64,000 nucleotides of DNA, taken from the IMG/VR virus record IMGVR_UViG_3300033146_003955, positions 94,813 to 158,812 of that record. One strand, given 5' to 3'. Position 1 is the stretch's first letter, and every line of letters starts with the position of its first letter. A program made the translations under genes and the position numbers. This DNA comes from a virus. The notes under the pieces were generated by a model, which saw only the letters and a program-made list of their open reading frames with translations, was not told where the DNA came from and made no database searches. Positions 20,126 to 45,582 of this stretch are shown here, in pieces.

Positions 20126-21736
20126 ATGATATTAAAAGTAAATGGTATAACAGTTGAAACGAAAATAAAATATACAACTGTTAGAGGTGCTAATTCCATT
20201 AAAATAAATGGAAATTATATATTAAAAAAAAATGATAATATAATATTTAAATGTTGTATATGCAATAAAGAAAAAAATCAAAAATTTAGATTTAAACCCA
20301 AATTTATAGAAGATGATATAATATGTGATTCATGCAATAGAAGTATAAATAATCCATTTAAAAGAAATGATGTTAAAGAAAAGATCAAAAATACAAATTT
20401 AAAACGTTATAACGTTAAAAATTCAATGCAAAATAAAGAGATATTAAAAAAAGCACAACAAAAACAAAAAGATAATAATAATGGTGTTCTAGCCTTCAAT
20501 TCAGATAAACAAAAAAAAACCTTAAAAAAAAAATATGGTAATGAAGTAATATTTAAAACGCAACACTTTAAAGAAAAAACAAAAAAAACTTTATTAAAAA
20601 ATTATGGCGTTGAAAATCCAATGAAATCTGATATTATTAAAAATAAAACCAAATCTACAATGAAAAAACGATATGGAAACGAAATAATATATAAATCTAT
20701 TTATTTTAAAAAAAAATCTAAAAAAACAATACAAGAAAGATATGGTGTAGATTATATTATACAAAATCCCGAAATTAAAGAAAAAATAGAAAATACCATG
20801 ATTACGCGTTATGGATCTAAAACATTTTTAACATCAAATAGATATATTGCTATGGGAATTAATACTAATACATCTAAAACTCATTATGAAATAATTTCAT
20901 TTATTAAAAGTTTTAATATAACAAATATTAAAATAAATAATAGAAAAATTATATCTCCTATGGAACTAGATATTTATTTGCCTGATCATAATATCGCTAT
21001 TGAATTTGATGGTCTTTACTGGCACTCTGATAAGTTTAAAGAGAAAAACTATCATATCAATAAAACCCTTCAGTGTGAGGCTAAAAACATTCATCTTATA
21101 CACATCTTTGAAGATGAGTGGGCTAACAAGAGAGGAATAATTGAAGCTCGGTTAAAAAATCTTTTAGGTTTAAACTCTAAAAGAATTGGAGCCAGAAAAA
21201 CTATAATAAAAGAAATTAGCCCTAAAGTTAAAAATGCTTTCTTAGAAAAACATCATATACAAGGAGAAGATAAAAGTAATATTAAGTTGGGTGCTTATTA
21301 TAGGAACGAATTAATTGGTGTTATGACTTTTTCTAAACCTAGAATATTTATGAGCAAAAAAGCTAAAGATGGAAGTTGGGAACTTAGTAGATTTGCTACT
21401 ATACCGGATACATATACACCAGGATTAGCTTCTAAAATGCTTAAATATTTTGAGAGAGGTTGGAATCCTAAGCTGATAGAATCATTTGCAGATAGAAGAT
21501 GGAGCCAAGGTAATTTATATAAAAAATTAGGTTTTGAACTTGCAAGTCAAACTAATCCTAATTATTATTATTTTAAAAATTTAAAACGATGGCATAGATA
21601 TAAATTTAGAAAATCAGAACTTACCAAGTTTGATAATTATACACCAGAAAAGACTGAGAAAGAAATAATGAACGAAGCCGGATGGGGTAGAATATATGAT
21701 TGTGGTAATTATAAATTTACAAAAGATTATTTTTAG
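20126..21736 (+). CDS. putative homing endonuclease: YGV repeats + PD-(D/E)XK nuclease + Mom/GNAT-like C-terminal domain
   Basis: KKYG repeats; ELDIYLP..IAIEFDGLYWHS; FLEKHHIQG...ELSRFA...SFADRRWSQGNLYKKLGF...IYDCG. Confidence 0.75.
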   Translation: MILKVNGITVETKIKYTTVRGANSIKINGNYILKKNDNIIFKCCICNKEKNQKFRFKPKFIEDDIICDSCNRSINNPFKRNDVKEKIKNTNLKRYNVKNSMQNKEILKKAQQKQKDNNNGVLAFNSDKQKKTLKKKYGNEVIFKTQHFKEKTKKTLLKNYGVENPMKSDIIKNKTKSTMKKRYGNEIIYKSIYFKKKSKKTIQERYGVDYIIQNPEIKEKIENTMITRYGSKTFLTSNRYIAMGINTNTSKTHYEIISFIKSFNITNIKINNRKIISPMELDIYLPDHNIAIEFDGLYWHSDKFKEKNYHINKTLQCEAKNIHLIHIFEDEWANKRGIIEARLKNLLGLNSKRIGARKTIIKEISPKVKNAFLEKHHIQGEDKSNIKLGAYYRNELIGVMTFSKPRIFMSKKAKDGSWELSRFATIPDTYTPGLASKMLKYFERGWNPKLIESFADRRWSQGNLYKKLGFELASQTNPNYYYFKNLKRWHRYKFRKSELTKFDNYTPEKTEKEIMNEAGWGRIYDCGNYKFTKDYF

Positions 21737-35128: not shown

Positions 35129-35310
35129 TTTTTAATAAAGTCTCCACATGTTTTAATCTCTAGTATATCTTATACTCAGTGTGTCTTGGAATACCATTCT
35201 ATACTTAATAAGTTACCTATACTATCTTGCCATACTATCTCAGTATCATTATGATAGTAGTGGAAGCAATTAAAACATGTGAAATCTTTTAATATATTAT
35301 TTATGTTTAT
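35125..35310 (-). pseudogene. decayed Cys zinc-binding paralogue
   Basis: ATA at start position, reads TCFNC...KTH*V*DILEIKTCGDF; overlaps both neighbours like a coupled gene. Confidence 0.55.
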
Positions 35311-36269
35311 TACTTAGTTAAAATAAGCTTCCCATTTGAAACTTTAAAATCTTTAACGGCAAAACCAGCAGCCTGCTTGTGTCCACCACCACCGAATGAT
35401 TTAGCAATTATAGAGAGGTCTATATCCTCTCTTGTGGTATAAATTGAACAACCATACTCCTCATATTTCCCATTATATGTATAAGCAAGCATAAAGTCAT
35501 ATTCCTCCTCATTCCACTCAGCATCAAAGAATTGGCTATTCTTAATAAAGGTGTTGGCAACTAAAACTTTATGTCCCATAAGCTCAGCATCGAAAGCAGT
35601 AACACTTAATCCAAATTTATTCTGTTCCTTTTGATATCTATAGAGAAGTTTACCTTTATAGATAGTCTCATCTATAAAATCATTATAGAGGGCGAAATAT
35701 CTACCACTCTTAGGATTATCCCTATCCTGACTAACCATCCAAAGATTATGTAAATGAGACCAAAACATCTGCCAATTATCATCAAACTTAGGGCTTGTAC
35801 TATGCACCTTCATTCCATACTGGAAGGGGATAATTTTATTAAACCATTTTGATCTATCAGATTGATCCCATACATCATATCTACCGAGCATTCTAATATG
35901 TGTGGGCACTTTTATACCAGGATAAAAATATTGCCAGGCCAATTCGCAACCTGCAAGAGCAGCGTCAAGAACACCGCCAGTTACGTACTTCAACATATCT
36001 GAATCTATTACCGTCTTATGATGGTCAATAATATAAACTTCCCAACCATACTTCTTTTCAAACTCTTTCATGTCTTCATTAGGTTGGTAGGTAACATCAA
36101 GGAAGTATACCTTATCGCCCCTCTCAAACTCTTCGAAAGGGAATTCTTGCCCATAATTATATGGGTGCATTGTATATGCTTCCCCTGCTGTATATTCAAA
36201 ATATTCTCTTGCTATTGCACCGCTAGCAGCTCCGTCTAAATCTGCTGAGTGGTATACTATTCTTACCAT
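35310..36269 (-). CDS. DHH/DHHA1 phosphoesterase
   Basis: YHSADLDG, FLD, IDHH, D.WD, GGGGHKQAAGF. Confidence 0.9.
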   Translation of the reverse strand: MVRIVYHSADLDGAASGAIAREYFEYTAGEAYTMHPYNYGQEFPFEEFERGDKVYFLDVTYQPNEDMKEFEKKYGWEVYIIDHHKTVIDSDMLKYVTGGVLDAALAGCELAWQYFYPGIKVPTHIRMLGRYDVWDQSDRSKWFNKIIPFQYGMKVHSTSPKFDDNWQMFWSHLHNLWMVSQDRDNPKSGRYFALYNDFIDETIYKGKLLYRYQKEQNKFGLSVTAFDAELMGHKVLVANTFIKNSQFFDAEWNEEEYDFMLAYTYNGKYEEYGCSIYTTREDIDLSIIAKSFGGGGHKQAAGFAVKDFKVSNGKLILTK

Positions 36270-39985: not shown

Positions 39986-40267
39986 TTATACTTTCAACTC
40001 TTCAACTAATTTATTATACTCTTGTTTGATTTTGTCAGCTTCGTCTGCCCAATACATAAAAGAAGGATCATTTTCATAATCATTCAACTCTCCAGACAAT
40101 TCCGACAAACTACATTGACACGAAATCATTTCATTATATTTTTTGACTAATTTATCAAAATAGGAGAGGGATTCTAATTTAGCTAAATCACTTCTCAATC
40201 TTTTTAATTCTTGTTCCTTATGGATCAGTCTCTTATATCTCTTACTAAATATAATTTTCATCTTCAC
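39986..40267 (-). CDS. coiled-coil hypothetical protein
   Basis: AGGAG RBS. Confidence 0.55.
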   Translation of the reverse strand: MKMKIIFSKRYKRLIHKEQELKRLRSDLAKLESLSYFDKLVKKYNEMISCQCSLSELSGELNDYENDPSFMYWADEADKIKQEYNKLVEELKV

Positions 40268-40284
40268 TCCTATTTAAAATAATT

Positions 40285-40312
40285 GGTAAAAGGGACCGAA
40301 GCCCCTCTTACC
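40285..40312 (-). terminator. UUCG-capped hairpin after CCA C-terminal gene
   Basis: GGTAAGAGGGG-CTTCGG-TCCCTTTTACC on - strand; weak U-tract. Confidence 0.6.
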
Positions 40313-41447
40313 AGTTTTTTGCGATTGTCAGTGCTTCTTCAAAAGTGGTAATCTCTTCACCAAGCTGAAGTTCACTGATGTGATTAAGAATCTCTTTGAA
40401 AAGAGGTCCTGGCTTGAAACCCATATCGATAAGATGCCGGCCAGAAATAAGTGGTTCTGGCAGTTCAATCTGATCTTCAAGAGTCCCAACAAAGGATTTA
40501 ACTTTCTCAACCCAATCAAGTTTAGTCAGACAAGGCTCAGCACAAATTGCACTTTCAGTATCTGCTTTAGAAACAATAACAAGACTATCAAGTCTCTCAT
40601 CTGCAACAAGTCTACGCAGAGTTGATTTCTTCATTTCCTTAGCATATTTAATTCTCATATGATTTTCAACGAGCCAAACAATATCATTAGTTTCCTTACT
40701 TGAGAATCTCAGCCTGTTAAGTATGTCCCTTGCAATTTCAGCACCAGCTTTATCATGACCATGAGCTTTAATCATACCATCTTCGATAGTAAAAGTGGCA
40801 GGTTTTCCAATGTCATGAAGCAGCGCAGCCCAAAGAAGAATAACATTATCAGTCTCCTTCCTAACAGCATCAAGAGTCATCATAGAATGTACACCTACCG
40901 AACCTTCACTGTGCCATTTAGGTGCTTGTTCACATCTCCAAAGTTTCTCAACTTCAGGAAGGATTGGTTCAAGCAGACCAGATGCTCTAAGCATTTCAAT
41001 ACCAATAGATGGTTTAGGAGCCATAAGCATTTTATTCATTTCATCGTGAATTCTCTCCTGAGATACAGAATCAATTTCACCAGCATGTTTCTTAATTGCT
41101 CCCCAAGAAGCCTCATCAAGTTTGAAATCAAACTTCGAAGTGAAGCGGATCGCCCTAAGCATACGAAGTTTATCTTCTTCGATTCTTCTCTTAGGGGAAC
41201 CAACAAATTTAACCAGTCCGTTCATAAGGTCTTTTTCACCATGAGTAAAATCAAAAATCTCTTCACTAATAGGATCAAAGAAAAGTGCATTCATAGTAAG
41301 GTCTCTTCTCATAGCATCTTCCTTCATTGAAGAGAACTCAACACTATCAGGCCTACGACCGTCACTTTCCAAAGTTATACATTCACCTTCTGGATGGATG
41401 CAGTGCCCCTCAAACCATTTACATTTATTACACATTGTTTTGTTCAT
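40308..41447 (-). CDS. cca: class II CCA tRNA nucleotidyltransferase, C-terminal half with HD domain, fused behind a Cys-rich leader
   Basis: DGRRP, RRDLTMNAL, EDKLRMLRAIRF, ERIHDE, H.EG.V..H, LLHDIGKP, GPLFKEIL. Confidence 0.9.
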   Translation of the reverse strand: MNKTMCNKCKWFEGHCIHPEGECITLESDGRRPDSVEFSSMKEDAMRRDLTMNALFFDPISEEIFDFTHGEKDLMNGLVKFVGSPKRRIEEDKLRMLRAIRFTSKFDFKLDEASWGAIKKHAGEIDSVSQERIHDEMNKMLMAPKPSIGIEMLRASGLLEPILPEVEKLWRCEQAPKWHSEGSVGVHSMMTLDAVRKETDNVILLWAALLHDIGKPATFTIEDGMIKAHGHDKAGAEIARDILNRLRFSSKETNDIVWLVENHMRIKYAKEMKKSTLRRLVADERLDSLVIVSKADTESAICAEPCLTKLDWVEKVKSFVGTLEDQIELPEPLISGRHLIDMGFKPGPLFKEILNHISELQLGEEITTFEEALTIAKNW

Positions 41448-41453
41448 ATCTAT

Positions 41454-41481
41454 ATTATACCACGTTCTTTGAAATGTCCAA
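41454..41481 (-). promoter_or_regulatory. leaderless promoter TTGGACA-N15-TATAAT-N6-ATG
   Basis: same layout at 43010-43037 and 62988-63015. Confidence 0.75.
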
Positions 41482-41554
41482 AATTAAATATGCTAAAAAC
41501 ACAACCTTTTGTGGAAAGATGACAAGATAACTATATAACAATGAAGGAGCTAAT

Positions 41555-41692
41555 ATGGAAAGTGAAAAACAAGTTAGATTGGATAAGGAGACATGGGAGA
41601 CATTGAAAATAATGTCTGTTAAAGAAAATAAATCAATGAAACAAGTTATAAAGGAAATGGTGAATGATAGAGAAAGTAATAATAAACAATAA
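41555..41692 (+). CDS. ribbon-helix-helix DNA-binding protein, 45 aa (not in ORF track)
   Basis: MESEKQVRLDKETWETLKIMSVKENKSMKQVIKEMV; AAGGAG RBS; AAGATAA at 41524-41530. Confidence 0.7.
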   Translation: MESEKQVRLDKETWETLKIMSVKENKSMKQVIKEMVNDRESNNKQ

Positions 41693-42704
41693 AGAAATTA
41701 TAGTTAAAAATTATAATGAAATTATACATTCTCATAAATATGGTAAAGAAAAAATTACTCTATATATAAATAATGTCTATTATCTTAAAACAAAAGATTT
41801 TATCCAGTATACTTGTGATGGGTGTGGTAATGATGAAACTAAAGAATATGCTTATAATTATAATAAATATCACCAAAATGAAGTATTGTGTGGTGAATGT
41901 TTAAAAAAGAAATCAAGATTAGAAAAATATGGCGTTGAAAATTTCTTTCAAAAAAAAGAAATACATAAAAAAGCACGGATAAATAGATCAACACAAGAGG
42001 CTAAAAATAAAACTAAACAAACAAAATTAAGTCGTTACGGAACTGAAAATTATAATAATAAAGAAAAAACAAAACAAACATGCATAAAAAGATATGGCGG
42101 TAATAGTCCTATGTCTGACCCAGTAATTAAAGGAAAATTAAACATATATTGGAATAATTTAAAAAATGATGATTATAATACCAAGGTAAAAAATAAACGT
42201 AAAGAAACGTGTCTCAAAAAGTATGGAGTAGAATACACGACACAAACTGATATAATGAAAGAAAAGTCTAAACAAACTTGTTTAAAGAATTATGGTGTTG
42301 AATATCCAGCTCAAAATCCAGAAATTCATAGAAGACAGATGTCACGGTTTGGTAAAACTAATACATTAAAACAAATAAATGAAGATTTACATTATCAAAC
42401 TATTCCTGAATTAGAATGTATTGAATATTGCCAATTTAATAATACAAATATATGGGATGGTCCTTCTATACCTTACATATTTGAAAATAAAAAACATATC
42501 TATCATGTAGATTTTGAAACTGATGAATACATAATAGAGATAAAAGGAAGTCATGGCTGGTATAAAAAGAATTTAGCGTCAGGTAAAATAGAAGCCAAAA
42601 ACAAAGCAGCACAAGAATATGCTGCTTCTGTAAATAAAGAATTTTTGTTTCTATTAGATATTAAAAATTATCTTTTTTTAGGTTCAAAATTTTTACAAGA
42701 ATAA
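41664..42704 (+). CDS. free-standing putative homing endonuclease (zinc ribbon + YGVE repeats + PD-(D/E)XK)
   Basis: CDGC..CGEC, TCLKKYGVE repeats, YHVDF...IIEIKG; antisense, between the two cca halves. Confidence 0.8.
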   Translation: MIEKVIINNKEIIVKNYNEIIHSHKYGKEKITLYINNVYYLKTKDFIQYTCDGCGNDETKEYAYNYNKYHQNEVLCGECLKKKSRLEKYGVENFFQKKEIHKKARINRSTQEAKNKTKQTKLSRYGTENYNNKEKTKQTCIKRYGGNSPMSDPVIKGKLNIYWNNLKNDDYNTKVKNKRKETCLKKYGVEYTTQTDIMKEKSKQTCLKNYGVEYPAQNPEIHRRQMSRFGKTNTLKQINEDLHYQTIPELECIEYCQFNNTNIWDGPSIPYIFENKKHIYHVDFETDEYIIEIKGSHGWYKKNLASGKIEAKNKAAQEYAASVNKEFLFLLDIKNYLFLGSKFLQE

Positions 42705-43003
42705 TCATGAGTTCTGGCTTGAAAAGTAGCACACTCAAATTCTTCATTTTTATGGAGAACAACAATAATTCCAAACTGTTTACCGACAGGTACAGTTCTT
42801 GGAAAAAGAAATTCTATCTCCTCGGGACGTGCATCTGTAGCAATATCCACATCATGCGGCTCATGACCAAGAAGAATATCACGGACTGCGCCTCCCGCAA
42901 TAACGCCAGCAAAACCGTTATCTTTAAGGATGGAAATAACTTCAGTAGCAGCCTGAAACATACTTGAGTCTTTTATATTTTTGTTTAGTTTAATCTTTCT
43001 CAT
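42668..43003 (-). CDS. cca: class II CCA tRNA nucleotidyltransferase, N-terminal catalytic half
   Basis: AGGAVRDILLG..PHDVDIATDA.P, VGKQFG, EFECATF. Confidence 0.9.
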   Translation of the reverse strand: MRKIKLNKNIKDSSMFQAATEVISILKDNGFAGVIAGGAVRDILLGHEPHDVDIATDARPEEIEFLFPRTVPVGKQFGIIVVLHKNEEFECATFQARTHDYSCKNFEPKKR

Positions 43004-43009
43004 ACTTCT

Positions 43010-43037
43010 ATTATACCATATATTAGGAAATGTCCAA
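43010..43037 (-). promoter_or_regulatory. leaderless promoter TTGGACA-N15-TATAAT-N6-ATG
   Basis: same architecture as the promoter of the C-terminal half. Confidence 0.75.
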
Positions 43038-43043
43038 AACTCT

Positions 43044-43279
43044 AATATCCCATATATACTAACGTTTTATTCTCTAAATCAATTGTCTTAAATAATTTAA
43101 CCAATTCAAAAATGGCATATTCATAGCGGGAGGCATCTGAAACGGTTTCATCACATCTTCTTTGTTTTCAAATGAGAGAGTAACAATCCAGTCACCTTCT
43201 AAAAAAGTACATTCATCTTTAGCATGAAGTGAAAAAAGGATATAAAAAAGAATAAAAATACTATAAAATACTTTCTCAT
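43044..43279 (-). pseudogene. possible frameshifted secreted-protein gene
   Basis: AGGAG RBS; MRKYFIVFLFFFISFF, then a shift in a T-run continues SLHAKDECTFLEGDW. Confidence 0.35.
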
Positions 43280-43288
43280 AATAAACTC

Positions 43289-43666
43289 CTAATAATTATT
43301 GGTTAACTTAGATGTCAATTGATTAAGGGCAATTTCTGAAGCTGAAGCAAATTTAATAGTCATTATACCATCAATATTTAAATCAATACTCATAAAAGTA
43401 ATGTCATCATAATTATCTTCTACAGCTACCATAGCTTTGTGACAATTCATATATGCTTCGCTCATAATTCTACAATTTGTAGTTGTGTCATACTTCCTTA
43501 AAGAACGTATAGCTACTTTAATTGTATAATTCTTTTTCCTAGCATCACGCTTCCCTGTTGAAGTGAAGAGAGATGAAAACGGGGTATAATCTAATATATA
43601 ATCTTTTTTGGGGAAATTAGAGATAAATTCATTTATTATATCTGTATGTGCTTGCTCATCCAACAT
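43289..43666 (-). CDS. hypothetical protein
   Basis: GAGG RBS. Confidence 0.6.
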   Translation of the reverse strand: MLDEQAHTDIINEFISNFPKKDYILDYTPFSSLFTSTGKRDARKKNYTIKVAIRSLRKYDTTTNCRIMSEAYMNCHKAMVAVEDNYDDITFMSIDLNIDGIMTIKFASASEIALNQLTSKLTNNY

Positions 43667-43821: not shown

Positions 43822-44070
43822 TCATTGTAATTTGGCATATCCTTTAGCCATTTTATTACGAATTTTCTTTTTAATCTCCCAATCTACGTCATAGGAGGAG
43901 ACATGTTTAGATTGTATTTTTTTACCAATTCTAGCCCAATAAGTTGTATAACCATCATCTTCAGGTTGAATACACCAGAACTTATAATGTCCATCTTGGG
44001 TATTTACATATAGATTGGTAGGAAATTTAAGCAGTAGAAGTGCTTCATCCCATACTTCTAAGTTTTCCAT
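43822..44070 (-). CDS. WGR-domain-like protein
   Basis: HYKFW.I......YWARIG....K......KMAKGY. Confidence 0.7.
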   Translation of the reverse strand: MENLEVWDEALLLLKFPTNLYVNTQDGHYKFWCIQPEDDGYTTYWARIGKKIQSKHVSSYDVDWEIKKKIRNKMAKGYAKLQ

Positions 44071-44137: not shown

Positions 44138-44512
44138 TTATTTAACTATTTTAAGGACCGTTTTGGTCTTATGTAATTCTTTTTCTAATTCTAGATACTT
44201 TTTACCTTTTTTAGAATTGTTACCAAATTTACTCATTTTATTTTTAATAGATGATATCTTATTTTCGTATTGTTCAATTAATTCTTTTTTCTGTCTAGAA
44301 TCAACTTTTTCTAGGATGGGGTTTTTTTTAATACCATCTATATTATAAAGACTTATGGTAGTTTCTTCACCATCAGGATTCTTAAGAGTAAAATATTCCT
44401 CATCATCCTTCATATCTTTAATAGTCCAGGTATCAAGACTGTTAGGAATAGTTACTTCGTCGCCCACCTTAAGATCACCTTTTATTTCATTAACTATTTT
44501 TTTAAAATTCAT
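44138..44512 (-). CDS. possible head-internal protein
   Basis: MNFKKIVNE, internal ILE. Confidence 0.6.
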   Translation of the reverse strand: MNFKKIVNEIKGDLKVGDEVTIPNSLDTWTIKDMKDDEEYFTLKNPDGEETTISLYNIDGIKKNPILEKVDSRQKKELIEQYENKISSIKNKMSKFGNNSKKGKKYLELEKELHKTKTVLKIVK

Positions 44513-45582
44513 ATTAATACCTCACTTAATTTTTCTTCAATATTTTCATTATATTTTATTCTTATTAATTGTATGTTATTATCTTTACAATATTTATTTT
44601 TTATTGCATCATTTTGTTGTCGATATTTTAAACCTTTTTTACCATCCCAAATTTCTTTGATAACAAAATGTTGTTCACCATCATATTCTACTAATATATT
44701 TGTTTCAGGAAGATAAAAGTCAAAAGGCAACGGTTTGACATTTTTACAATCATTAAATTTATATTGTCTTATATATTGTATATTTTTATTATCTAAATAT
44801 TCAGCTACAGCTTTTTCACCTTTAGATTCATTACACTTAAAACAGCCTTTACCTTGTAAATGACTTTTCGGATTTTGTTCGAATAAGCCATGTTTTGGAC
44901 ATATTATTTTAATTTTAGTTTTATTGTTTATATATTTTACTAAAGAATAATCATATTTATTATTATGTTTTAATTTAACTTTTTGTATAAATTCACTATT
45001 ACTATATTTATATTTTCCAGAACATATTTTACAGCCTTGCCCGTTTAAATGTGCATATGGTTGCTGTTTAAATATACCGTGTTCTGGACATATTATTTTA
45101 ACTTTAGTTTTACTATCTTCATAATCGATTAATGAATAATTATATTTATTATTATGTTTTAATTTAGCTTTTTTAATAAATTCTTTTGTAGTTAATTTAT
45201 ATGTTGTACTACATTTAAAACATCCATGTGTATAATGATTATTTGGGGTTTGTTCAAATATACCATGTTCTGGACATATTATTTTAATTTTAGTACTATT
45301 ATTTATATAATCAACTAAAGAATAATCATATTTGTTGTTGTGAATTTTAGAAGCTTTTTTTATGAATTCTCCTGTAATCAATTTATGTTTATTCACGTTA
45401 CATTTTGAACAGCCTCTACCACGCAAATGGTTTGATATTAATTGCCAAAATATACCATGCTCTGGACATATTATTTTAACTTTAGTTTTACTATCTTTAT
45501 AATCAACTAAAGAATAATCATATTTATTCCCATGTACAGCTTTAGCTTTTTTTATAAATTCTTCAGTAGTTAACTTCTTCAT
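44509..45582 (-). CDS. putative homing endonuclease (KYDYSLV/ICPEHG zinc repeats + PD-(D/E)XK)
   Basis: four FIKKA..HxNKYDYSLV.Y...IICPEHG...GC..C repeats; LPFDFYLP...VEYDGEQH. Confidence 0.8.
   Translation of the reverse strand: MKKLTTEEFIKKAKAVHGNKYDYSLVDYKDSKTKVKIICPEHGIFWQLISNHLRGRGCSKCNVNKHKLITGEFIKKASKIHNNKYDYSLVDYINNSTKIKIICPEHGIFEQTPNNHYTHGCFKCSTTYKLTTKEFIKKAKLKHNNKYNYSLIDYEDSKTKVKIICPEHGIFKQQPYAHLNGQGCKICSGKYKYSNSEFIQKVKLKHNNKYDYSLVKYINNKTKIKIICPKHGLFEQNPKSHLQGKGCFKCNESKGEKAVAEYLDNKNIQYIRQYKFNDCKNVKPLPFDFYLPETNILVEYDGEQHFVIKEIWDGKKGLKYRQQNDAIKNKYCKDNNIQLIRIKYNENIEEKLSEVLI

What the first reader, a model, noticed from the sequence alone, without database searches (positions are those of the whole stretch)
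40308..43037. CCA-adding enzyme in two pieces, each with the same promoter, split by an antisense endonuclease cassette
Seen: the N-terminal catalytic part (GGAVRD, DVD; 42668-43003) and the remainder (RRD, EDxxR, HD domain; 40308-41447) are separate intact ORFs with an opposite-strand RHH + endonuclease between them. Both are preceded by TTGGACA-N15-TATAAT-N6-ATG and no catalytic motif is degraded. Known: the break lies between motifs A and B, in the flexible loop whose deletion converts class II CCA enzymes into CC-adding enzymes; phage Aeh1 nrdA, split by mobE, is a precedent for a functional gene in pieces. Inference: a functional heterodimeric tRNA-repair nucleotidyltransferase, possibly with altered CC versus CCA specificity. 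I know of no described naturally split CCA enzyme of this kind.
Basis: partly seen in the sequence, partly recalled or inferred. Interest (0 to 1): 0.9.

Follow-up and report, generated by a model that had tools for sequence, protein, structure and literature searches.

The report
Phage CCA enzyme in two pieces
An uncultured phage carries its tRNA CCA-adding enzyme as two separately expressed genes, cut inside the catalytic domain by a mobile endonuclease cassette that also supplies matching cysteine-rich tails; the same design recurs in related phages, so the enzyme probably works as two pieces.

Summary
A class II CCA-adding enzyme gene is broken between motifs A and B. The 111-aa N-piece is at 42668-43003 (-) and the 379-aa C-piece at 40308-41447 (-). 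Between them lie an antisense RHH-like gene and an intact homing endonuclease. Both pieces follow a 40-nt repeat holding the same extended -10 promoter, 6 nt before the ATG.

New here: the same break occurs in at least 7 other metagenomic contigs, with conserved non-enzyme tails. The N-piece ends in YSCKNFEP. The C-piece begins C-x-KCKWF...C-x-H. No full-length relative has these tails.

The enzyme bodies of the split genes are polyphyletic (AU p 1.3e-7). Sharp mosaic breakpoints flank the cassette, and two different endonuclease types occupy the slot. In two loci the endonuclease has decayed but the split remains. dN/dS is 0.17-0.25 on both halves.

Best reading: a mobile splitting cassette (tail, endonuclease slot, RHH, promoter, head) that converts intact CCA genes into a working two-piece enzyme. 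The closest precedent is phage Aeh1 nrdA split by mobE, whose insertion-derived tails are essential.

Activity, zinc binding and CC versus CCA specificity are untested. This scan noted a similar split CCA locus in another genome (e1-3954593).

The parts
43010..43037 (-). Promoter-like site of the N-piece: TTGGACA-N15-TGGTATAAT (extended -10). The ATG follows 6 nt after the -10, a leaderless-type layout. It is part of the 40-nt repeat 43000-43039.
   Evidence: the same promoter sits before the N-piece in L031 and L034
42668..43003 (-). N-piece of the CCA-adding enzyme, 111 aa: motif A (GGAVRD, DVD) and the strand ending in FECATFQ. Stop codon is TAA.
42671..42712 (-). N-tail (residues 98-111, THDYSCKNFEPKKR). 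It is not homologous to any full-length enzyme. The core [H]-x3-C / YSC(K/R)NFEP is conserved in all 5 known N-pieces. It overlaps the endonuclease 3' end on the other strand.
42603..42628 (-). Terminator-like hairpin (11-bp stem plus T run) about 40 nt after the N-piece stop. It would make the N-piece its own transcription unit.
   Evidence: consensus scan only
41664..42704 (+). Intact free-standing homing endonuclease, 346 aa. It has an N-terminal Cys4 element, DUF7487 repeats and a C-terminal domain with a D...E-x-K motif that resembles TnsA-like PD-(D/E)xK nucleases.
41555..41692 (+). Small RHH-like gene, 45 aa. It overlaps the endonuclease start by 29 nt and is transcribed divergently from the C-piece. 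It is conserved in 4 cassettes (64-78% identity, dN/dS 0.07-0.24).
   Evidence: all Pfam RHH families below cut-off
41519..41540 (.). GTTAT repeats with 8-bp period in the divergent intergenic region. They are conserved in every cassette, and L005 has one extra unit. Inferred operator for the RHH protein.
   Evidence: the operator role is inference
41454..41481 (-). Cassette-borne promoter of the C-piece: TTGGACA-N15-TGGTATAAT with the ATG 6 nt after the -10. It is part of the 40-nt repeat 41444-41483. The TG(G/T)TATAAT box is homologous in all cassettes.
41364..41447 (-). C-head (residues 1-28), the cysteine-rich extension M..C-x-KCKWF..C-x-H..G-x-C. C6, C9, C16 and H18 are invariant in the 5 aligned C-pieces. 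It is absent from all full-length relatives.
40308..41447 (-). C-piece of the CCA-adding enzyme, 379 aa: head, loop remnant DGRRP, motifs B-E, RNA-binding neck, and the HD and tail domains.
40284..40313 (-). Terminator-like hairpin (13-bp stem, 6 G-C pairs, T run) at the C-piece stop.

Best explanation
[quoted passage not shown] In gene orientation the cassette reads: a short new C-terminal tail and stop codon for the upstream half; a slot holding an antisense homing endonuclease; an antisense RHH regulator; a divergent control region with its own extended -10 promoter; and a start codon plus a 27-residue cysteine-rich head for the downstream half. The two halves are transcribed and translated separately. 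In this phage they use near-identical leaderless-type promoters. They then reassemble non-covalently into one nucleotidyltransferase by re-forming the head-domain sheet. The tail and head, probably a zinc-binding knuckle or clasp, pack against each other at the cut. When this phage co-infects a cell with a phage carrying an intact CCA gene, the resident endonuclease cuts that gene. Repair then copies in the whole cassette plus some flanking enzyme sequence. This explains why the same tails sit on enzyme bodies that are not each other's closest relatives. What is shown: the anatomy, recurrence, polyphyly, mosaic breakpoints, purifying selection and absence of an intron. What is inferred: assembly, activity, zinc binding, RHH control and endonuclease target.
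For: Recurrence of the same break with the same tails:
- L003 and L031 carry the same endonuclease type.
- The P0038 contig has N-piece / antisense DUF7487 gene / C-piece at only 43% body identity.
- L004, L005, L030 and L034 also show it.
- Among the 120 best relatives and a profile search of 1.84 billion representatives, the head occurs only at the N-terminus of C-piece-sized proteins. It never occurs inside a full-length enzyme.

Mobility:
- The body tree needs 4 changes of the split state. An AU test rejects one split clade (delta lnL 219, p 1.3e-7).
- The L004 C-piece is 39/40 identical to full-length P0005 just after the head. The last 38 columns of its N-piece are closer to other split forms (71%) than to P0005 (55%), while the first 45 are 84% P0005-like.
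- L034 is 97% identical to the window down to about 42870, then 57-80%, and carries a different endonuclease.

Function retained:
- NG86 dN/dS is 0.17 for the N-piece (window vs L031, dS 0.80) and 0.25 for the C-piece (window vs L003, dS 0.96).
- All catalytic motifs are invariant.
- The split persists where the endonuclease is a 64-aa remnant (L004) or gone (L030, 217-bp spacer).

No splicing:
- Rfam found no intron in 40000-43400.
- The insert holds antisense genes, and each half has its own promoter and terminator-like hairpin.

Pairing:
- Complex prediction of C-piece + N-piece + Zn scored 0.83 against a best control of 0.00. That mark was reached by 58 of 80 solved complexes and 2 of 110 mismatched pairs.
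- Runs agree in at least 76% of contacts, and partner pLDDT is at least 80.
- The confident interface includes head residues 5-25 and tail residues 101-110.
- Because single-chain CCA enzymes are solved, this pass may reflect likeness to them rather than independent evidence.

Other:
- The head is low-confidence when the C-piece is folded alone (pLDDT 42-55 for residues 1-40).
- Precedent: insertion-derived tails are essential in Aeh1 NrdA-a/NrdA-b (PMC3045599).
Against: No experiment or expression data exist. dS is near 1 for the best pairs and saturated for the rest, so dN/dS is rough. Zinc binding rests only on the Cys/His pattern, and the head matches no Pfam family. The flexible loop is needed for A-addition (PMC2910056), and cutting it could change the enzyme's product. 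All relatives are short metagenomic contigs, and one (P0038) gave no DNA. The polyphyly could partly reflect recombination after a single ancient split rather than repeated invasions.
Confidence: 0.7

Rival explanations
1. The enzyme works in two pieces, but the tails are neutral insertion scars. Assembly relies only on the native head-domain interface, and the cysteines bind nothing.
For: In Aeh1 the tails were not needed for heterodimer formation itself. The lowest-error contacts in the complex model are the native sheet (C-piece 52-60 with N-piece 33-41). The head is disordered in the single-chain model.
Against: The tails are much better conserved than neutral sequence would be. C6, C9, C16, H18 and the KCKWF core are invariant across bodies only 43-56% identical. 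YSC(K/R)NFEP is present in all 5 N-pieces. A divergent member (P0137) keeps a CxxC...C...C pattern with other residues changed.
Confidence: 0.15
2. The gene was killed by the endonuclease insertion, and the two ORFs are decaying remnants (a pseudogene).
For: The catalytic domain is cut in two, and the host presumably has its own CCA enzyme, so loss might be tolerated.
Against: Both ORFs are intact with all motifs. dN/dS is 0.17-0.25 between relatives that are both split. The split state persists across bodies down to 43% identity and after endonuclease decay. Each half has a dedicated promoter and start.
Confidence: 0.05
3. The halves are rejoined covalently by an intron, a split intein or trans-splicing.
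For: Phage genes broken by endonuclease genes are often rescued by group I introns or, in 'fractured genes', by split inteins (PMC2677866).
Against: No Rfam intron was found. The insert carries antisense genes, a stop codon, a terminator-like hairpin and a new promoter. The tails total about 14 + 27 residues, far too short for an intein fold. Pfam finds no intein family in either piece or in the heads.
Confidence: 0.02
4. The two-piece enzyme is active but has changed product, for example adding only CC because the loop that switches the pocket to ATP is cut. Alternatively, it serves mainly through its HD phosphohydrolase part.
For: Loop mutations and deletions abolish A-addition but not C-addition, and natural CC-adding enzymes lack the loop (PMC2910056). 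The cut lies at the start of that loop.
Against: The loop's conserved basic segment DGRRP is kept and is invariant in the main split forms, whereas CC-adding enzymes have lost the loop. The phage's one detected tRNA (anticodon CUA) has no encoded CCA and needs the full triplet, although the host enzyme could supply it.
Confidence: 0.25

Closest known systems
Aeromonas phage Aeh1 nrdA split into nrdA-a/nrdA-b by the free-standing endonuclease gene mobE (Friedrich 2007; Crona et al. 2011, PMC3045599)
   Same: A conserved phage enzyme gene is cut within its catalytic region by a free-standing homing endonuclease gene. There is no intron or intein. The pieces are translated separately. Unique tails created by the insertion sit at the cut, and in Aeh1 they are essential for activity.
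   Different: The enzyme differs (tRNA nucleotidyltransferase, a monomer, not RNR). The endonuclease is antisense and of another family (DUF7487/TnsA-like, with a NUMOD3-type alternative). The C-piece has its own cassette-borne promoter rather than sharing an operon mRNA. An RHH gene is part of the unit. The tails are Cys/His-rich rather than oppositely charged. The cassette with its tails is found on several non-sister enzyme lineages, whereas Aeh1 is a single case.
[quoted passage not shown] 2009, PMC2677866)
   Same: The layout is the same: half, endonuclease gene, half, mainly in phages. Control elements are brought in with the endonuclease. The endonucleases have a PD-(D/E)xK-type fold.
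   Different: No intein is present. The extensions are 14 and 27 residues and lack intein motifs, so the halves cannot be ligated. CCA-adding enzymes are not among the eight enzyme types listed in that abstract.
T4 topoisomerase gp39/gp60 split by mobA
   Same: A phage enzyme is split next to a free-standing endonuclease gene, with tail-like extensions noted in PMC3045599.
   Different: The enzyme is different. The T4 case also involves ribosomal bypassing in gene 60. No shared sequence.
Collaborating CC-adding and A-adding enzymes (for example Aquifex, Bacillus halodurans)
   Same: CCA synthesis depends on two polypeptides, and the flexible loop is the element that differs.
   Different: Those are two complete paralogous enzymes with partial activities. 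They are not two halves of one catalytic domain.

Membership tests
Class II tRNA nucleotidyltransferase (CCA-adding enzyme, PolyA_pol head + HD) | Motif A GGxVRD with the DxD carboxylates | tested here: met
   The N-piece reads GGAVRD ... DVD. G37, G38, R41, D42, D51 and D53 are invariant in alignment A2. Pfam PolyA_pol E 1.5e-18.
Class II tRNA nucleotidyltransferase (CCA-adding enzyme, PolyA_pol head + HD) | Motifs B (RRD) to D (EDxxR) and the RNA-binding neck | tested here: met
   R47, R48, D49, E91, D92, R95 and R98 are invariant in A3. PolyA_pol_RNAbd E 2e-20. Matches solved CCA enzymes 1MIV, 6IBP and 3H37.
Class II tRNA nucleotidyltransferase (CCA-adding enzyme, PolyA_pol head + HD) | [quoted passage not shown] | tested here: inconclusive
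   The loop is cut at its start. DGRRP is kept on the C-piece, and 14 + 27 foreign residues are added. The effect on A-addition is unknown.
Class II tRNA nucleotidyltransferase (CCA-adding enzyme, PolyA_pol head + HD) | Adds C, C, A to tRNA 3' ends | not testable with these tools
   Needs an enzyme assay.
Endonuclease-fragmented 'genes in pieces' with insertion-derived tails (Aeh1 nrdA type) | Host gene cut into two ORFs by a free-standing endonuclease gene, with no intron or intein | tested here: met
   Rfam was negative. No intein family was found.
Endonuclease-fragmented 'genes in pieces' with insertion-derived tails (Aeh1 nrdA type) | Unique tail sequences at the cut, absent from uninterrupted homologues | tested here: met
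Endonuclease-fragmented 'genes in pieces' with insertion-derived tails (Aeh1 nrdA type) | Function retained, and tails required for it | not testable with these tools
   Indirect support only: purifying selection, persistence without the endonuclease, and the model of the complex.
Fractured genes with split inteins | Split-intein halves (Hint fold, about 100 + 35 residues or more, terminal Cys/Ser and His-Asn) | tested here: not met
   The extensions are 14 and 27 residues. There is no His-Asn before the first enzyme residue and no intein Pfam match.
DUF7487 / PD-(D/E)xK-type phage homing endonucleases | DUF7487 repeats plus a restriction-endonuclease-like nuclease domain | tested here: inconclusive
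   DUF7487 scores 75 bits against a cut-off of 27. PHROG 3339 and 12131 are annotated 'homing endonuclease'. The C-terminal domain resembles TnsA-like N-terminal domains only by Atlas model comparison (TM by query 0.70-0.74). There is no PDB sequence match. Cleavage is untested.
Ribbon-helix-helix DNA-binding proteins | Match to an RHH family profile | tested here: inconclusive
   Seven RHH-type Pfam families match, all below their cut-offs (best RHH_4 at 18.1 bits against 25). A 41%-identical relative lies in an unrelated contig, L032.

The most novel reading that the evidence does not exclude
The unit tail / endonuclease slot / RHH / promoter / head is a portable gene-splitting kit. Whichever endonuclease sits in the slot drives it into intact CCA genes of distantly related phages. 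The kit makes its own insertion harmless by supplying expression signals and a pair of peptides that re-join the halves through an inter-chain zinc site. This would be a third, protein-complementation solution alongside introns and inteins, and here it is inherited and spread as a module.
Probability: 0.4. Interest if true: 0.8.

Novelty: new variant of a known kind. Interest (0 to 1): 0.66.

Why it matters
Three reasons.

1. It would be the first natural CCA-adding enzyme made of two polypeptides. The cut is exactly at the loop that governs the switch from C to A addition, which gives enzymologists a natural experiment on that loop.

2. It extends the single Aeh1 case of insertion-derived assembly tails to a second enzyme. 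It adds something Aeh1 could not show: the tails, a regulator and a promoter travel together with interchangeable endonucleases across diverged host genes. That suggests mobile elements can carry a ready-made antidote to the damage they cause.

3. The 14- and 27-residue tails are candidate small, natural protein-complementation tags.

Tried and rejected
- Megablast of the locus against GenBank phages found no match. tblastn found only relatives at 36-44% identity.
- Single-protein scans of IMG/VR found nothing.
- A degenerate DNA pattern for CxKCKWF in IMG/VR gave 22 hits, none of them a CCA gene.
- A word-indexed search restricted to the head found only P0002.
- Rfam at a permissive threshold showed no intron, only two sub-threshold chance hits.
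- A PDB sequence search with the endonuclease gave nothing usable.
- Pfam on the isolated heads gave nothing.
- AlphaFold2 of the C-piece alone left the head unresolved, so no fold search of the head was attempted.
- RHH profile scans of JGI metagenomes and IMG/VR found only distant relatives in unrelated contexts, so no further cassettes and no cassette in another host gene were found.
No read-level check of the junctions and no expression evidence were possible. Independent assemblies from several samples stand in for the mis-assembly check.
- Stop-codon recoding was considered because of the tRNA(CUA). ORF totals give no sign of it, and the N-piece ends in TAA.
- A split intein was considered and rejected on length and motifs.
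Full report
**What is in the window.**
- On the minus strand, a 111-aa ORF (42668-43003) matches the first 77 positions of the Pfam PolyA_pol head domain.
- A 379-aa ORF (40308-41447) matches positions 72-125 of that domain, then the RNA-binding neck, an HD domain and the tRNA_NucTran2_2 tail.
- These are the only two PolyA_pol matches in the whole record. The record is an IMG/VR virus contig of 158,812 bp, estimated 80% complete.
- Between the halves on the plus strand lie a 45-aa RHH-like ORF (41555-41692) and a 346-aa ORF (41664-42704).
- The 346-aa ORF has a DUF7487 match above Pfam's cut-off and PHROG families annotated as homing endonucleases.
- Its C-terminal 120 residues carry a D...E-x-K motif. 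By Atlas model comparison they resemble TnsA-like PD-(D/E)xK domains. This is a lead, not a proof.
- The insert is AT-rich: GC 0.22-0.27 against 0.37-0.42 in the enzyme parts.
- The endonuclease 3' end overlaps the N-piece 3' end by 37 nt on the other strand.

**Expression signals.**
- Both halves are preceded by TTGGACA-N15-TGGTATAAT, with the ATG 6 nt after the -10 box.
- This is part of a 40-nt direct repeat, 78% identical.
- The 11-mer TTGGACATTTC occurs nowhere else in the 158.8-kb record.
- Only 4 of 153 long ORFs have a TAnAAT box 4-8 nt before the ATG. Two of them are these halves, and a third is another endonuclease gene.
- The spacing fits leaderless mRNAs. That is an inference.
- Terminator-like hairpins follow each half, at 42628-42603 and 40313-40284.
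- A permissive Rfam scan of 40000-43400 found no intron.
- The two halves therefore look like two separate transcription and translation units.

**Where the cut is.**
- Full-length relatives read ...FEVATFR-x-D-x4-DGRRP... at this point.
- In the window, homology of the N-piece ends after ATFQAR. Fourteen foreign residues follow (core YSCKNFEP) and then TAA.
- The C-piece starts with 27 foreign residues (M..C-x-KCKWF..C-x-H..G-x-C..), and homology resumes at SDGRRP.
- This lies between motifs A and B, at the N-terminal edge of the 10-12-residue flexible loop.
- According to Hoffmeier et al. 2010 (PMC2910056), that loop is needed for A-addition but not C-addition and is deleted in CC-adding enzymes.
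- My mapping onto the numbered loop of solved enzymes is approximate. It uses the alignment ranges.

**The split is not unique to this phage.** The closest relatives of the C-piece in 5.8 billion proteins are C-piece-sized: P0002 (70% identity), P0003 (56%), P0004 (53%) and P0038 (43%). Full-length enzymes start at 56% identity. Their contigs show the same architecture:

| Locus | What it shows |
|---|---|
| L003 | RHH and the start of the same endonuclease upstream of the C-piece |
| L031 | N-piece, same promoter, same endonuclease 3' end antisense |
| P0038 contig | N-piece / antisense DUF7487 gene / two small ORFs / C-piece |
| L004 | N-piece, a 64-aa endonuclease remnant, RHH, C-piece |
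| L005 | RHH fragment and C-piece |
| L030 | N-piece, 217-bp spacer, C-piece |
| L034 | N-piece with a different endonuclease |

- All five N-pieces end in [H]-x3-C / YSC(K/R)NFEP.
- All C-pieces start with the CxKC...C-x-H head. C6, C9, C16 and H18 are invariant in the 5 aligned.
- A divergent member, P0137, keeps CxxC-x7-C-x3-C.
- A profile of the head was searched against 1.84 billion representative proteins. It matched only at the N-terminus of such C-pieces and never inside a full-length enzyme. The head is therefore not an old loop insert that later got cut.

**The cassette moves.**
- A maximum-likelihood tree was built from the enzyme bodies (DGRRP onward). It places the five split genes at four separate positions among full-length genes, with strong support.
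- An AU test rejects a single split clade (delta lnL 219, p 1.3e-7).
- The L004 C-piece is 39/40 identical to full-length P0005 right after the head.
- The L004 N-piece is 84% P0005-like in its first 45 columns. In the 38 columns next to the cassette it is only 55% P0005-like and 71% like another split gene.
- L034 is 97% identical to the window from the promoter down to about 42870, then drops to 57-80% up to the cassette.
- L034 carries a different endonuclease, with NUMOD3-like repeats and a C-terminal IWINN...GWIKGM module. That gene is 64% identical to the remnant in L004 (E 7e-22) and unrelated to the window's endonuclease.
- The RHH gene and the divergent control region are homologous in all cassettes. 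The control region holds the GTTAT repeats with 8-bp period and the TG(G/T)TATAAT box.
- RHH identity (76-78% between the window and L004 or L030) exceeds enzyme-body identity (50-56%).
- These are the expected marks of endonuclease-driven gene conversion with co-conversion of flanks.
- The data also show that the scaffold (tail, slot, RHH, promoter, head) outlives any one endonuclease.

**Is the two-piece enzyme functional?**
- All catalytic residues are invariant.
- dN/dS between pairs that are both split is 0.17 for the N-piece (dS 0.80) and 0.25 for the C-piece (dS 0.96). More distant pairs are saturated but similar.
- The split is maintained where the endonuclease is a stump (L004) or absent (L030).
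- The promoter in front of the two halves is homogenised in two lineages: 40 nt in the window, and 88 nt at 91% in L030, where a copy of RHH plus control region also sits before the N-piece.
- Complex prediction on C-piece + N-piece + Zn gave 0.83 against a best control of 0.00.
  - That mark was reached by 58 of 80 solved complexes and 2 of 110 mismatched pairs.
  - Runs agree in at least 76% of contacts, and partner pLDDT is at least 80.
  - The confident interface contains the native sheet plus head residues 5-25 and tail residues 101-110.
  - Single-chain CCA enzymes have been solved, so this pass may be memory of their fold.
- When the C-piece is folded alone, the first 40 residues are low-confidence and the rest is confident (mean pLDDT 87.7).
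- Zinc binding is inferred from the ligand pattern only.

**Comparison with what is known.**
- The closest case is Aeh1 nrdA split by mobE. There, Crona et al. showed that tails created by the insertion are essential, and they predicted that such tails exist on other fragmented genes (PMC3045599).
- The 'fractured genes' of Dassa et al. share the layout but use split inteins (PMC2677866). Here the extensions are far too short for inteins and lack intein motifs.
- Full-text searches found no report of a split CCA-adding enzyme gene. In the literature, 'split CCA-adding activities' means separate CC- and A-adding enzymes.
- Within this scan, a follow-up on another genome (e1-3954593) reported a CCA gene cut by endonuclease genes with cysteine-bearing tails. 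A first-reader note on this same stretch (e1-5743088) proposed a zinc clasp. I treat both as leads, not evidence.

**Verdict.**
- The thing is a new variant of a known kind: an endonuclease-fragmented phage gene with insertion-derived tails.
- It differs in the enzyme hit, the Cys/His tails, the built-in promoter and RHH gene, the interchangeable endonucleases, and the evidence that the whole kit spreads between diverged genes.
- Open points are activity, product (CC versus CCA), zinc binding, the role of the RHH protein, and the endonuclease target.

Noticed in passing
L030:1500-1811 and L029:540-720: In two relatives the CCA enzyme appears to be in three pieces. The C-piece stops right after W-H-x-E-G at the start of the HD domain, with a shared foreign tail (ATV-R/Q-R...). 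A further ORF then resumes the HD domain, preceded by a shared foreign head (NP-E/D-H...KF). In L030 the third piece has its own promoter-like site and Shine-Dalgarno sequence. In L029 it overlaps the previous stop. This is a second, independent split site with its own tails. No endonuclease is present.
   Followed up: partly
L034:1-921 versus window 42661-43098: A contig from another sample is 97% identical to the window through the N-piece promoter and first ~50 codons. It diverges sharply at about window 42870 and carries a different, NUMOD3-type endonuclease in the cassette slot. This is a clean recombination breakpoint next to a nuclease gene.
   Followed up: yes
G000:C1:53503-53575 (outside the window, 41 kb before it): The only tRNA found in the record has anticodon CUA (an amber suppressor type) and no encoded CCA end. 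ORF statistics give no sign of TAG recoding.
   Followed up: partly
window 20126-21736 (+) and 44509-45582 (-): Two more intact homing-endonuclease-like genes are present (PHROG 3339/559/681). The second lies 1.5 kb from the CCA locus. It has repeated zinc-ribbon modules and a TATAAT box 7 nt before its ATG.
   Followed up: no
window 43822-44070 (-) and 35310-36269 (-): There is an 82-aa WGR-domain protein just upstream of the CCA locus and a DHH/DHHA1-type phosphoesterase 4 kb downstream. Most neighbouring genes have no Pfam match.
   Followed up: no
L030:350-469 and 880-998: The whole control region (GTTAT repeats, promoter, Shine-Dalgarno sequence) is duplicated before both halves (88 nt at 91%). 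The RHH gene sits before the N-piece instead of the C-piece. This suggests repeated copying of the cassette's control region to the front of the upstream half.
   Followed up: partly
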